A stretch of 10,146 nt of DNA from positions 1-10,146 of IMG/VR virus record IMGVR_UViG_2541047850_000007. The stretch is one strand, 5' to 3'. This stretch comes from a virus (Duplodnaviria > Heunggongvirae > Uroviricota > Caudoviricetes). Below, piece after piece: positions 6,001 to 9,000 of the stretch. Position 1 is the first letter of the stretch. Each line of letters opens with the position of its first letter. Position numbers: made by a program.

Positions 6001-9000
6001 CAGGTAAGCCAGTGGACCGGACAGAACGGAGAAACGCGGCAGGGCTGGCAGGTTATCGCAGACAGCGTAATCAGTGCCCGCGCGGCACGTCCAGGCGGGA
6101 ACAGACGCAAAACCACAGGCACACAGGGTAATCAGCCACCAGCGGGAGGCGATGACCCTTACGGTGATGATATTTCGTTCTGAGGGGGTGACGATGGTAC
6201 ATGACCGCATAGCGGAGGAACTGGAGGCGAAAGGCTTTTACCGGAGGGCGGCGGCGCGATGGGGTGAAGTCATGCAGCTGGTGGAGACAGACAAGGAACG
6301 GCATCACATCACGATGCGACGGCTGGAATGTTCAAGGAAGGCACAGAGGGCACCGGAGCCGCCGGATAATTTCGGAGACCTGAAAAAGGCAGTCGATCGC
6401 ACTTATGCCGAAATGGGTATAGATGGTGCTGGTGATGAAATATGGCGCAATTACCAGGACAGCTAATCAAACAGCCGGAGAAATCCGGCTTTTTTTGCAC
6501 CAGTTGAAACGGTATGGCGCATTACCGGGTTTTCGTCACGGTCAGGCATAGTTACTATCTGAAACAAACAGACACAACAGAGGAAAAAAACAATGCCGAT
6601 GAAATTTGATGAGATATTAAAACAGCGTGATAAATACCATGCTGACAACATGGAGACGATGAGCATCAATGATTACCGCGCATTCCTGGAGACGGGCGCA
6701 CTGATTGAAAAGGATCAGCATGGTTTTGTGAGATGTGCTCTATCCGGTGAAATGCTGGCGGTAAATCCTGAACAGATAGATGCATTGATAGAATTTCTGA
6801 AAGAGATCAGAGACTGAGCCAGCACACAGCACACATAGCCGGAGCAATCCGGCTTTTTTGCGCCCAAAAAAAGCCCGATAAGGTCAGAGGGTTCTTATCG
6901 GGCTTTTGCATATGAGGTTTTTGGATGCACTGGCGTTCGTGATCGGGATAATCATTTCATAATTTGCAACATAACTCAATATCATTGCATAAAATGCAAT
7001 TCTGATTATAATCAGGACTGGATAAACATCCAGTTATGATTTTTTTAGTCGAAGAGGAATTTCTTACTATGGCTGAAGAGAAAAAAGGCGGTGTTTCGGT
7101 GTACATAAGCCCCGAAATCGTGGAGGTGCTCAAGCAGCGCCACAAAAAAAACTATGAAGCTGGCGTTGCGGCTGGACTGGATCCGCTGATGACGCCGGAG
7201 CCGTCGATAGGTTCACTTGTACGCTCTTATTTACTTGCGGCGCTTGGGATGCATAAAAATTATGGGGGTGAATAATGGCAGGCAAAGCAACGGCACTTAA
7301 CACTAACCAGCTTTTCATGTACCTGAATCGCGGGGATATTGCGGATTTTAAATTCAGCCCTCTGTTTACCACGCTGTTTTTCCCGAACGTGGCGACATTC
7401 AGCACGCAAAACATCATGCTGGATACCCTGGACATTGAAGAAGTCACCATGTCGGCGTTTTGTTCGCCTATGGTGGGTAGCCAGGTTCAGCGCGATAAAG
7501 GGTACGAAACCAGCACAATCAAACCTGGCTACATGAAGCCAAAGCACGAAATCGATCCAACGAAAACCATCATGCGCATGGCTGGAGAAGATCCGGCACA
7601 GCTTAACGACCCTACCTATCGCCGTATGCGCCTGATTACTGGCAACATGCGCCGCCAGATAAACGCCATTAAGGCACGCGTGGAATGGCTGGCGGTGAAT
7701 GCGGTAACGACCGGAAAAAACATCATTGAGGGCGAAGGCATAGAACGCTATGAAATCGACTGGAAAATACCGGAAAACTGCATCATAGAGCAGGCCAAGG
7801 GTAAAAAATGGTCCGAGCAGGATAAAGACATGCACGACCCAATCTATGACATCGAGCTTTATGCTGATCAGGCTGGTTGCCCCGCAAACGTCATGATTAT
7901 GGGCGCTGAGGTATGGCGCACATTACGCAGCTTTAAAAAATTCCGTGAGCTGTACGATCTTTCCCGTGGTTCAGAATCCGCCGCCGAACTGGCCTGTAAA
8001 AACCTGGGCGAAGTGGTGAGCTTTAAAGGCTATCTTGGTGATCTGGCCCTTATCGTCTATTCCGGCAAATACACTGACAGCGATGGTACCGAAAAATATT
8101 TCCTTGAGCCTGATTTGCTGGTCCTGGGTAACACCAACAATAAAGGGCTGGTGGCCTATGGTGCGATTATGGAACAGGAAGCGGTAAGAACGGGCGCAAC
8201 GCAAAACATGTTTTACCCGAAAAACTGGATTGAAGACGGCGATCCGGCGATTGAGTACGTGCAGACACACAGCGCACCGCAGCCTGTTCCGGCAGATATT
8301 CGCAAATTTGTTACCGTCAAAATTGGTTAACGGTGGATTCTATGAACACTCCATACATTGAGTTATTTGCAGGCAGTCAGCAGGTATCAACGACGCTGGT
8401 ACATTTTGCCGCTGATGCTGGCGTTATTCAGGAATTTACCCCGCTGATGCTGGCGGACAATGGCGAGTTTAAGCCGTGGGATGGTCAGGAATCTGGCAAG
8501 GCTGTTTATCTGACCTCGTACCCCGTTGACACGTCGACGCAGAAATCAGCACAGTGCTATAAGACGGGGATATTCAATATCGCCGCCGTTAACTGGCCTG
8601 AGAGCGTCGACACCGATGCGAAAAAATGCGCCGCCTTTGCGGGTTCTGGCGTATCCGTTCAGCCGCTGGCCCGATAAGCAGGGGGAACGATGGCAACGAA
8701 TGAAAGCATCATGGCGCTACCGCTGGCGAGTAAATTTAAAGCCGAAGCGCGGGCAATGGCTGACAGAGGGTTATCAACCTACGAGGCCGTATATCAACTC
8801 AACAAACTGGAAGAACAGGACAAGCCGCGCGCTGATGCGATTATGGCGCTTCATGAACATAACGACTATCAGCCGCTGTTACGTGCAATGGCAAACGTGC
8901 CATGTATTAGCGTCGATAATGCTCGTGAAATCCTGAACATGACCATAGAGCAGGAGCGCCCAAAGGTTGCACCAGAGCTTACCGCAGCCTTTGAAAACTT

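What the first reader, a model, noticed from the sequence alone, without database searches (positions are those of the whole stretch)
6497..6910. Terminator-insulated single-gene cassette (74 aa)
The ORF has its own Shine-Dalgarno and is bracketed by identical intrinsic terminators upstream and a double terminator downstream, so it is a transcriptionally autonomous unit between the regulatory and head modules. This is the typical architecture of a moron or accessory gene. The product is acidic, helical-looking and of unknown function.
Basis: seen in the sequence. Interest (0 to 1): 0.5.

Follow-up and report, generated by a model that had tools for sequence, protein, structure and literature searches.

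The report
Optional small-protein cassette in phage satellite
A real 74-amino-acid gene, flanked by repeated terminator hairpins, is an optional accessory cassette found only in phage satellites (PICIs and capsid-forming PICIs); its protein is made even when the satellite is dormant, and its function is still unknown.

Summary
ORF 6593-6817 has a GAGGA Shine-Dalgarno. A hairpin terminator lies upstream (6473-6497). A near-identical copy (20 of 21 bases) lies downstream (6837-6860), followed by a second, bidirectional hairpin (6869-6907).

The window is an E. coli phage-inducible chromosomal island (PICI). ORF74 is the orthologue of ECs_1589 / EDL933_RS08695 in the capsid-forming PICI EcCIEDL933.

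- It is a real gene: dN/dS is 0.09-0.23, and all members are acidic. It belongs to PHROG 1957, which has no known function.
- I found it only in satellites, in about 14 genera of Enterobacterales, and in none of 50,697 phage records.
- It nearly always sits between the replication origin and the capsid module.
- In E. coli, leader + ORF + terminator (354-364 bp) is a clean gain/loss unit bounded by direct repeats of the hairpin. EcCICFT073 and about half of sampled capsid-forming PICIs lack it, so it is dispensable for satellite mobilisation.
- Its own promoter is not supported. No sigma-70-like site lies in the leader, and one relative has the gene overlapping perC.
- Published data show a constitutive post-origin transcript (ECs1586-ssb-pchE). 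Published proteomics detected the protein unchanged in untreated and ciprofloxacin-treated cells.

Most likely it is a distal, attenuated cistron of that resident-state accessory operon. No fold or family match was found.

The parts
6194..6466 (+). perC/pchE-like gene. This is the last gene of the constitutive post-origin transcript and lies immediately upstream of the cassette.
   Evidence: Pfam PerC, E = 1.2e-42. Annotated pchE (ECs_1588) at the same place in Sakai. 5' RACE in strain PA20 shows a polycistronic mRNA ECs1586-ECs1587-pchE (PMC7369912).
6473..6497 (+). Hairpin terminator T1 (AGCCGGA GAAA TCCGGCT plus T7). It is the left copy of the direct repeat that bounds the cassette, and probably attenuates the perC transcript.
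   Evidence: Relatives lacking ORF74 have one copy of this hairpin; relatives carrying it have two.
6498..6592 (+). Leader of ORF74, with a GAGGA Shine-Dalgarno at 6580-6584. No recognisable sigma-70 promoter.
   Evidence: Promoter scans were negative at 9 of 12 matches and at 8 of 12. The leader is almost identical in Sakai and about 90% identical in OkiPb01685.
6593..6817 (+). ORF74: a 74-aa acidic protein of PHROG 1957, orthologue of ECs_1589 / EDL933_RS08695.
   Evidence: (E = 2.3e-42). dN/dS 0.09-0.23. Homologues at 30-48% identity in satellites of other genera. Protein quantified by LC-MS in EDL933.
6837..6860 (+). Hairpin terminator T2 (GCAA loop plus T6). It is the right copy of the direct repeat and travels with ORF74.
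   Evidence: The BLAST breakpoint at 6858 in capsid-forming PICI contexts falls just after it.
6866..6910 (.). Bidirectional hairpin T3 (A7, 15-bp stem, T4). It is the left end of the lambda-E-type head module and has the stronger T-run on the minus strand.
   Evidence: BLAST matches in genomes without ORF74 (NCTC86 and others) start at 6867.
6956..7045 (+). Candidate head-operon control region: a promoter-like site TTCATA-18-TATCAT (6956-6985), inverted repeats (6994-7041) and a weak hairpin plus T-run (7016-7045) ahead of ORF68.
   Evidence: The region is about 90% conserved in CFT073, which lacks ORF74.
7069..7275 (+). ORF68, the first gene of the head operon (PHROG 3255). Its N-terminal strand-then-helices pattern looks ribbon-helix-helix-like by eye.
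   Evidence: Weak similarity to the 64-aa ORF that precedes the Klebsiella ClpP-capsid gene (E = 0.003).
9107..9131 (+). Third copy of the same hairpin terminator, after the Nu3-like scaffold gene and just upstream of cosN.
5258..5530 (+). Replication-origin iterons (GGTGAACAG / CTGTTCACC) and the inferred post-origin promoter region that drives ORF81-ssb-perC, and by read-through ORF74.
   Evidence: A transcription start 10 nt upstream of ECs1586 was mapped in the Sakai-type island. A TGAACA-16-TATATT site sits at the same place directly ahead of the family gene in L024 and L028.

Best explanation
ORF74 is a genuine but optional accessory gene specific to phage satellites.

Shown:
- It encodes a small acidic alpha/beta protein under purifying selection.
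- The family occurs in PICIs and capsid-forming PICIs of Enterobacterales. It sits after the replication gene and origin and before the capsid/packaging operon.
- In E. coli, leader + ORF + its terminator (354-364 bp) is a gain/loss unit bounded by direct repeats of a 21-bp terminator hairpin.
- Satellites without it, such as EcCICFT073, are still induced, replicated, packaged and transferred.

Inferred:
- It is not self-transcribed. It is the distal cistron of the post-origin operon (ORF81-ssb-perC/pchE), which is transcribed constitutively in the dormant island.
- Hairpin T1 lets only a fraction of that transcription through.
- T2, backed by T3, stops that transcription from entering the head genes, which have their own control region.
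- The protein is therefore present at low, roughly constant level in uninduced cells and is not co-induced with the primase operon.

More weakly inferred:
- With net charge -3 to -9 across the family and no DNA-binding signature, it most likely acts by binding another protein of the host, of a competing phage or of the helper. That would make it a resident-state modulator or immunity-type factor rather than part of the replication or packaging machinery.
- The repeated hairpins also act as short portable homologies that let the cassette be lost or swapped between islands sharing the roxA-phoQ integration site.
For: - Real gene: dN/dS 0.085-0.23 in 10 pairs, PHROG 1957 E = 2.3e-42, and a confident model when a family alignment is used (pLDDT 83.7).
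- Satellite restriction and synteny: contexts in Klebsiella, Ewingella and Arsenophonus. All 9 species-representative loci, from 8 genera, show replication gene, then family gene, then HK97-type capsid module. Three divergent members give no tblastn hit in 50,697 phage records.
- Cassette: BLAST breakpoints at 6858 and at 6825/6867. The alignment with CFT073, OkiPb01685 and Sakai shows the indel. Of 42 IMG/VR capsid-forming PICI loci, 22 carry the gene. In the loci inspected, those with it had two hairpin copies (-635 and -281 from the capsid start) and those lacking it had one (-280).
- Dispensability: EcCICFT073 lacks it yet is mobilised by lambda and phi80 (PMC6092414, PMC6739421).
- Expression: a polycistronic ECs1586-ECs1587-pchE mRNA starts just after the origin, is active without induction and is lowered by SOS. 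The EDL933_RS08695 protein was quantified at -1.48-fold (3 h) and -1.05-fold (12 h) with ciprofloxacin and its RNA was not differentially expressed. By contrast, primase rose 5.3-fold in RNA and 34-fold in protein.
- No promoter in the leader. perC overlaps the family gene in L021. In L024 and L028 the family gene sits directly behind the post-origin promoter-like site.
- Location matches the published PICI accessory region next to pri.
Against: - No transcript mapping across T1 is available, so read-through is inferred, not shown.
- T1 looks like an efficient terminator (7-bp GC-rich stem, GNRA loop, T7).
- The proteomic detection comes from one label-free study of a 74-aa protein.
- A weak or activator-dependent promoter in the leader cannot be excluded.
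- The function is not established: no Pfam, NCBIfam, PADLOC or PDB-sequence match, and no fold match.
- A borderline profile match to the wing-like segment of the N.BspD6I recognition domain (E = 2.3e-4) leaves DNA binding possible.
- In the Arsenophonus 16-kb replicons the gene follows terL rather than the origin.
Confidence: 0.55

Rival explanations
1. Autonomous moron. The cassette has its own promoter in the 96-nt leader and is transcribed independently of both flanking units. It would be a single-gene conversion or immunity factor.
For: - Terminators on both sides.
- Clean presence/absence polymorphism.
- GC content lower than the neighbours.
- Protein present in uninduced cells and not co-induced with primase.
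- A conserved TTGAAA hexamer at 6505-6510 and the conserved 3' half of the leader could hide an unconventional promoter.
Against: - No -35/-10 pair reaches even 8 of 12 matches in the leader.
- Relatives have the gene overlapping perC (L021) or abutting the upstream ORF or the origin, with no upstream terminator.
- The family is never found in phages.
Confidence: 0.25
2. Late-switch regulator. The protein activates or de-represses the capsid/packaging operon that lies immediately downstream.
For: - It lies directly upstream of the packaging operon and in the same orientation in nearly every satellite examined, whatever the capsid type.
- It is followed by a terminator and then a separate control region.
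- A borderline wing-like sequence match exists.
Against: - EcCICFT073 has an about 90% identical head-operon control region and functional packaging genes without ORF74.
- About half of the sampled E. coli capsid-forming PICIs lack it while having the same capsid-upstream sequence.
- The protein is acidic and matches no DNA-binding family.
- The protein is present in uninduced cells while capsid RNA is not raised.
Confidence: 0.1
3. Replication accessory factor acting at the adjacent origin, for example as an origin-binding or helicase-loading helper.
For: Outside E. coli the gene starts within about 15-60 nt of the last origin iteron.
Against: - It occurs with three unrelated initiators: D5 primase, RepA AAA_25 and DUF927.
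- In E. coli it is separated from the origin by ORF81-ssb-perC.
- In Arsenophonus it lies after terL.
- It is absent from replication-proficient EcCICFT073.
- It was not co-induced with primase.
Confidence: 0.05
4. Not a functional gene. Only the repeated terminators matter, and the ORF between them is incidental.
For: The unit is dispensable, and the hairpins recur at module borders.
Against: - Strong purifying selection is seen at 30-48% identity across genera.
- The Shine-Dalgarno is conserved.
- The protein was detected by mass spectrometry.
Confidence: 0.02

Closest known systems
ECs_1589 (Sakai Sp7) / EDL933_RS08695 (CP-933C, O-island 51, capsid-forming PICI EcCIEDL933), a hypothetical protein
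   Same: Orthologue: 73 of 74 residues identical. It has the same leader and the same two flanking hairpins, and sits immediately after pchE.
   Different: There it precedes an HK97-type capsid-forming packaging module. In the window it precedes a lambda E/D-type head module plus hairpin T3. The window is therefore a mosaic of the two island types.
Accessory (immune) region next to pri in Gram-negative PICIs, which houses the Tai tail-assembly-inhibition genes (PMC11364771)
   Same: Same map position, between pri/origin and the packaging genes. The cargo is variable and dispensable.
   Different: Tai proteins are about 26 kDa and are also found in phages. ORF74 is 8.5 kDa, matches no PADLOC model and is absent from phages. 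It is far more conserved in position than typical hotspot cargo, and the variable cargo (for example the convergent 170-aa gene) lies downstream of it.
Phage morons (extra, self-contained transcription units between conserved genes of lambdoid phages; from my own knowledge of the Hendrix/Juhala definition)
   Same: An extra gene between sequences that are adjacent in relatives, with its own terminator, deviant GC content and expression in the dormant state.
   Different: No detectable promoter of its own. It is carried by satellites rather than phages, and it is syntenic across genera rather than sporadic.
pchE / PerC-family and RgdR (DUF4222) regulators of the same island
   Same: Small island-encoded proteins made from the dormant element. 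pchE is its immediate neighbour and sometimes overlaps it.
   Different: No sequence similarity. Outside Escherichia and Shigella the ORF74 family occurs without perC.
SaPI Ppi and E. coli PICI Rpp (small proteins that bind the helper's small terminase subunit)
   Same: Small satellite-specific proteins thought to act by protein-protein binding.
   Different: No homology. EcCIEDL933, which carries ORF74, does not interfere with its helper phages. Only c1503 (rpp) blocked lambda among the post-origin genes of EcCICFT073, an island that lacks ORF74.

Membership tests
PHROG 1957 (unknown function) | Full-length match to the family HMM | tested here: met
   E = 2.3e-42, residues 1-74 against profile positions 1-74 of 82.
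Intrinsic (Rho-independent) terminator | GC-rich stem-loop immediately followed by a T-run, more stable than shuffled sequence | tested here: met
   T1 and T2 have a 7-bp stem with 5 GC pairs, a GNRA loop and T7/T6, with z = -3.8 and -5.0. T3 has a 15-bp stem but only T4 on the plus strand and T7 on the minus strand. Termination activity itself was not measured.
Moron | Extra gene present between sequences that are adjacent in close relatives | tested here: met
   CFT073 and 20 of 42 capsid-forming PICI loci lack it. In the loci inspected, one hairpin copy remains.
Moron | Own promoter | tested here: not met
   No sigma-70-like site of at least 8 of 12 matches in 6463-6592. L021 has the gene overlapping perC. 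This is a consensus scan only; no transcript mapping was done.
Moron | Own terminator | tested here: met
   T2 travels with the ORF in both island types. A downstream hairpin is found in 7 of 10 family contexts.
Moron | Expressed from the dormant element | tested here: met
   The EDL933_RS08695 protein was quantified with and without ciprofloxacin and was essentially unchanged (PMC11125564 Table S1). Orthology was checked. This is a single study.
Moron | Carried by phages or prophages | tested here: not met
   No tblastn match for three divergent members in 50,697 phage records. All contexts are satellites or small satellite-like replicons.
PICI accessory region downstream of pri (PMC11364771) | Located between pri/origin and the packaging module of an int-alpA-pri island | tested here: met
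   Window gene order and 9 of 9 genome loci. Paper text.
Known anti-phage defence systems (PADLOC-DB v2) | Match to a defence-protein HMM | tested here: not met
   No hit at E <= 0.1 for the window protein or for P0048. P0037 gave only a chance-level hit.
Winged-helix DNA-binding domain | Recognition helix plus beta-hairpin wing; structural match to known winged-helix domains | tested here: inconclusive
Core PICI life-cycle gene (int, alpA, pri, packaging) | Present in all functional islands of the type | tested here: not met
   Absent from EcCICFT073 and from 20 of 42 capsid-forming PICI loci.

The most novel reading that the evidence does not exclude
The ORF74 family could be a new, satellite-exclusive single-protein system made in the dormant state. 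It would either defend the host/satellite against competing phages or protect the satellite from phage- or host-encoded interference (for example Tai-like tail-assembly blocks), by sequestering a target protein. The repeated 21-bp terminator hairpins would serve as dedicated recombination linkers that shuffle this cassette, and whole modules, between classical and capsid-forming PICIs sharing one attachment site.
Probability: 0.2. Interest if true: 0.6.

Novelty: new member of a known kind. Interest (0 to 1): 0.35.

Why it matters
- **Why the gene is worth attention.** PICIs and capsid-forming PICIs are major vehicles of gene transfer in Enterobacterales. The region between their origin and packaging operon was only recently recognised as an accessory and immunity hotspot. 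ORF74 is the most conserved occupant of that region, is satellite-specific, is made in dormant cells of E. coli O157:H7, and has no known fold or function.
- **What finding its partner would give.** It would either add a new small defence or counter-defence factor, or reveal how dormant satellites condition their host.
- **Practical points on the terminators.** The repeated terminators explain how the constitutive pchE operon is kept from switching on capsid genes. They also mark the module junctions at which these islands recombine. This is useful for annotating such islands and for engineering PICI-based delivery vehicles.

Tried and rejected
- **Family searches:** Pfam gave only a sub-threshold DUF7189 hit (16.5 bits against a cut-off of 27), seen in 2 of 18 members. 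NCBIfam and PADLOC gave nothing meaningful.
- **PDB by sequence:** the single sequence found nothing. The family profile gave only the borderline N.BspD6I match.
- **RNA:** Rfam gave no family at gathering threshold in the window and nothing credible in 6400-7100. A known sRNA or riboswitch reading of the leader and hairpins was therefore dropped.
- **P0019:** this 1383-aa protein with seven weak repeats matching residues 21-57 has no supporting domains and was treated as spurious.
- **Search mechanics:** the first related-loci run with the wide alignment failed for lack of a conserved stretch and was repeated with a tighter alignment.
- **Helper-interference idea (Ppi/Rpp-like):** rejected because EcCIEDL933 carries the gene and does not block its helpers.
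- **Hairpin as a general E. coli repeat:** not supported. Among the 33 loci fetched up to it occurs only inside these E. coli and Shigella islands.
- **Literature:** searches for ECs1589, WP_001132079 and phrog_1957 found nothing.
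Full report
**1. What the window is**

The window is a Gram-negative phage-inducible chromosomal island (PICI). ORF listing and Pfam/PHROG scans give this gene order:
- a tyrosine integrase (1-1239);
- an AlpA-type helix-turn-helix gene;
- a DUF4222 gene;
- a D5-type primase (3411-5243);
- an origin region full of GGTGAACAG iterons (5258-5480);
- ORF81 and an SSB gene;
- a PerC-family gene (6194-6466);
- ORF74;
- a head module: ORF68, a lambda-E-type capsid gene, a gpD-type decoration gene, a Nu3-like scaffold gene and a Nu1-like protein.

Related islands occupy the roxA-phoQ site of E. coli O157:H7, CFT073 and Sakai. The window as a whole is a mosaic. The best complete-genome match is 98.6% identical over 94% of its length.

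**2. The observation**

ORF74 (6593-6817) has a GAGGA Shine-Dalgarno 8 nt upstream of the ATG. Three hairpins surround it:
- T1 at 6473-6490, followed by T7;
- T2 at 6837-6854, followed by T6;
- T3 at 6869-6907.

All three fold much better than shuffled controls, with z between -3.8 and -5.0.

T1 and T2 are copies of one 21-bp element that differ only in the loop (GAAA against GCAA). A third copy lies at 9110-9130. Three copies are found against 0.01 expected by chance. T3 has its longer T-run on the minus strand. Rfam finds no known RNA here.

**3. It is a real gene**

The gene has its own family:
- PHROG 1957 matches end to end (E = 2.3e-42).
- An exhaustive HMMER search finds about 20 cluster representatives at 30-48% identity. 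A profile search adds members from Klebsiella, Citrobacter, Ewingella and Arsenophonus.
- The alignments show a conserved core: Y-R...G...D-H-H-G-F-x-R...S-G-E...A-x-N-x-E-Q-x-D-x-L-I-E-x-L...R.
- dN/dS is 0.085-0.23 in ten comparisons.
- Every member is acidic, with net charge -3 to -9.

**4. Where the family lives**

Every context examined is a satellite or a small satellite-like replicon.
- In Klebsiella, Ewingella and K. variicola the gene follows the replication initiator and origin and precedes the capsid/packaging operon. Three unrelated initiators occur (RepA AAA_25, DUF927 or D5 primase). The downstream module is either a ClpP-capsid fusion or a full HK97-type capsid-forming module.
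- Nine species-representative loci from Shigella, Phytobacter, Pectobacterium, Kluyvera, Kosakonia, Enterobacter, Serratia and Leclercia all show int, alpA, rep, the family gene, then HK97 capsid through terL.
- The space between the family gene and the capsid gene varies from 0.25 to 1.8 kb. It sometimes holds a convergent 170-aa gene.
- In two 16-kb Arsenophonus replicons the gene follows terL instead.
- Three divergent members give no tblastn hit in 50,697 phage records. True phage loci with distant capsid homologues also lack it.

This map position is the published accessory region adjacent to pri in PICIs, and one of the variable regions flanking the capsid-forming PICI packaging module.

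**5. The cassette**

BLAST of 6467-7068 against complete E. coli genomes gives three classes of match:
- full length (360 genomes);
- 1-392 only, ending at window 6858 just after T2, as in Sakai Sp7 and other capsid-forming PICIs;
- 359/401-602 only, as in CFT073 and NCTC86, which have no ORF74.

Sakai ECs_1589 and EDL933_RS08695 are 73 of 74 residues identical to ORF74.

The four-way alignment shows how the indel arises. CFT073 has perC followed by a single GCAA-loop hairpin and then the same T3 and head region as the window. OkiPb01685 has the same perC end, a hairpin, the leader, ORF74, a second hairpin and then the capsid-forming PICI module.

Among 42 capsid-forming PICI loci from IMG/VR, 22 carry the gene. 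In the ten I inspected, those with the E. coli-type gene had hairpin copies at -635 and -281 from the capsid start, and those without it had one at -280. Loci with a divergent family member (L073, L080) had no copy of this hairpin.

Leader + ORF + one hairpin, 354-364 bp, is therefore a clean indel bounded by 21-22-bp direct repeats. The hairpin occurs only inside these Escherichia and Shigella islands among the loci fetched up. GC content is 42-45% in the cassette against 57-60% in ssb/perC.

Because synteny is conserved in distant genera, presence is probably the older state and the CFT073 form a deletion. That direction is an inference.

**6. Transcription**

Evidence against an own promoter:
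- The leader holds no -35/-10 pair of even 8 of 12 matches.
- In E. coli SB0258h1 the family gene overlaps perC by 10 nt.
- In Ewingella it starts 11 nt after the preceding ORF.
- In Pectobacterium and Serratia it sits directly behind the last origin iteron and a TGAACA-16-TATATT site. That is where ORF81 sits in the window.
- An upstream terminator exists only in the E. coli/Shigella lineage, whereas a downstream hairpin is seen in 7 of 10 contexts.

Published experiments supply the missing promoter. In O157:H7 PA20, RNA-seq and 5' RACE place the start of a polycistronic ECs1586-ECs1587(ssb)-pchE mRNA 10 nt upstream of ECs1586. That is just after the origin. This mRNA is made without induction and falls 2-7-fold on SOS induction (PMC7369912, PMC6265319).

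In EDL933 the ORF74 orthologue was quantified by label-free proteomics with and without ciprofloxacin. It changed -1.48-fold at 3 h and -1.05-fold at 12 h, and its RNA was not differentially expressed. The island's primase rose 5.3-fold in RNA and 34-fold in protein. Capsid RNA fell 1.8-fold (PMC11125564 Table S1).

The simplest reading has three parts. ORF74 is fed by attenuated read-through of T1 from the constitutive post-origin operon. It is uncoupled from the induced early operon. T2 and T3 keep that constitutive transcription out of the head genes, which have their own promoter-like site and inverted repeats at 6956-7045. Read-through itself has not been shown.

**7. Function**

The gene is dispensable for the satellite cycle. 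EcCICFT073 lacks it and is still mobilised by lambda and phi80. It is unlikely to be a strong anti-helper factor, because EcCIEDL933 carries it and does not reduce helper yield. It is unlikely to be the activator of the head operon, because islands with and without it share the same head-operon upstream sequences.

The alignment-based model is confident (pLDDT 83.7) but matches nothing in the PDB or BFVD. Pfam, NCBIfam and PADLOC are negative.

The only lead is a borderline profile match to a wing-like segment of the N.BspD6I recognition domain (E = 2.3e-4, domain E-value 0.12). I treat this as inconclusive.

Four things hold: uniform acidity, resident-state expression, restriction to satellites, and location at the edge of the accessory/immunity hotspot. 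I therefore commit, with low confidence in the specific target, to a protein-binding modulator. This would be an immunity, counter-defence or host-conditioning type of factor rather than a DNA-binding regulator or part of the replication or packaging machinery.

**8. Verdict**

'Transcriptionally autonomous' and 'moron' in the strict sense are not supported.

The gene is a new, uncharacterised member of a known kind: cargo of the PICI mid-island accessory region. It is unusual in being position-conserved across genera and exclusive to satellites. Interest is moderate.

Noticed in passing
window 9140-9310: A lambda-type cos site. GGGCGGCGACCTCGCGG (cosN) lies at about 9167-9183, followed by lambda-like sequence that then diverges where cosB should be. 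It sits between the third terminator-hairpin copy and a 180-aa Nu1-family protein (9311-9853). That protein is unrelated to the 144-aa protein at the same place in CFT073.
   Followed up: partly
window 7016-7045: A weak hairpin (GACTGGAT-AAAC-ATCCAGTT) plus T-run lies between the promoter-like site (6956-6985) and the first head gene. Its stem is conserved in CFT073. A promoter followed by a short leader and a terminator is reminiscent of antitermination-controlled late operons.
   Followed up: no
window 5258-5480: There are at least ten copies of the iteron GGTGAACAG / CTGTTCACC after the primase gene, which marks the PICI replication origin. Islands with RepA (AAA_25) or DUF927 initiators have different iterons (TAAGTGCGGCA; TAACCCAC/TAACCCGC) at the same place (L002, L005, L011).
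   Followed up: partly
L011 8380-8420; L019, L021 and L012 at the equivalent position: All capsid-forming PICI packaging modules examined begin with a conserved TTTTGTAAATTATTTGTTCG followed by two or three GTTGTTC repeats, right after the ORF74 terminator. This is conserved from E. coli to Klebsiella variicola and may be a regulatory or packaging site.
   Followed up: no
window 8690-9103: This 137-aa ORF (PHROG 1999) matches only the C-terminal part of head-maturation-protease profiles (phrog_53; E = 7e-10). That is the arrangement of lambda Nu3 scaffold nested in gpC, so the island seems to carry capsid, decoration and scaffold genes but no protease or portal.
   Followed up: no
window 6423-6551; L092 47452-47567: RefSeq annotates a 42-aa 'hypothetical protein', or a frameshifted 'trigger factor' pseudogene, running straight through terminator T1. 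This looks like an annotation artefact.
   Followed up: no
L012-L014 (Klebsiella variicola): These capsid-forming PICIs that carry the family gene are flanked on both sides by pieces of phage terminase genes (Terminase_4/TerL). They therefore appear to be helper-embedded satellites inserted in a prophage late gene.
   Followed up: no
L015, L016 (Arsenophonus nasoniae, 16-kb records): These are complete 16-kb plasmid-like replicons. They combine a capsid-forming PICI-type packaging module, the ORF74-family gene, a primase, a Replicase/PriCT gene and a HigB toxin. This may be an extrachromosomal form of the satellite.
   Followed up: no
L002 8294-8806, L008 4427-4939, L025 and L027 at about 10294-10808: A convergent 170-aa gene of unknown function (weak AbrB-like hit, no PADLOC match) recurs immediately downstream of the family gene in several genera. 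It shares a bidirectional hairpin with it. It is probably hotspot cargo, or possibly a functional partner.
   Followed up: partly
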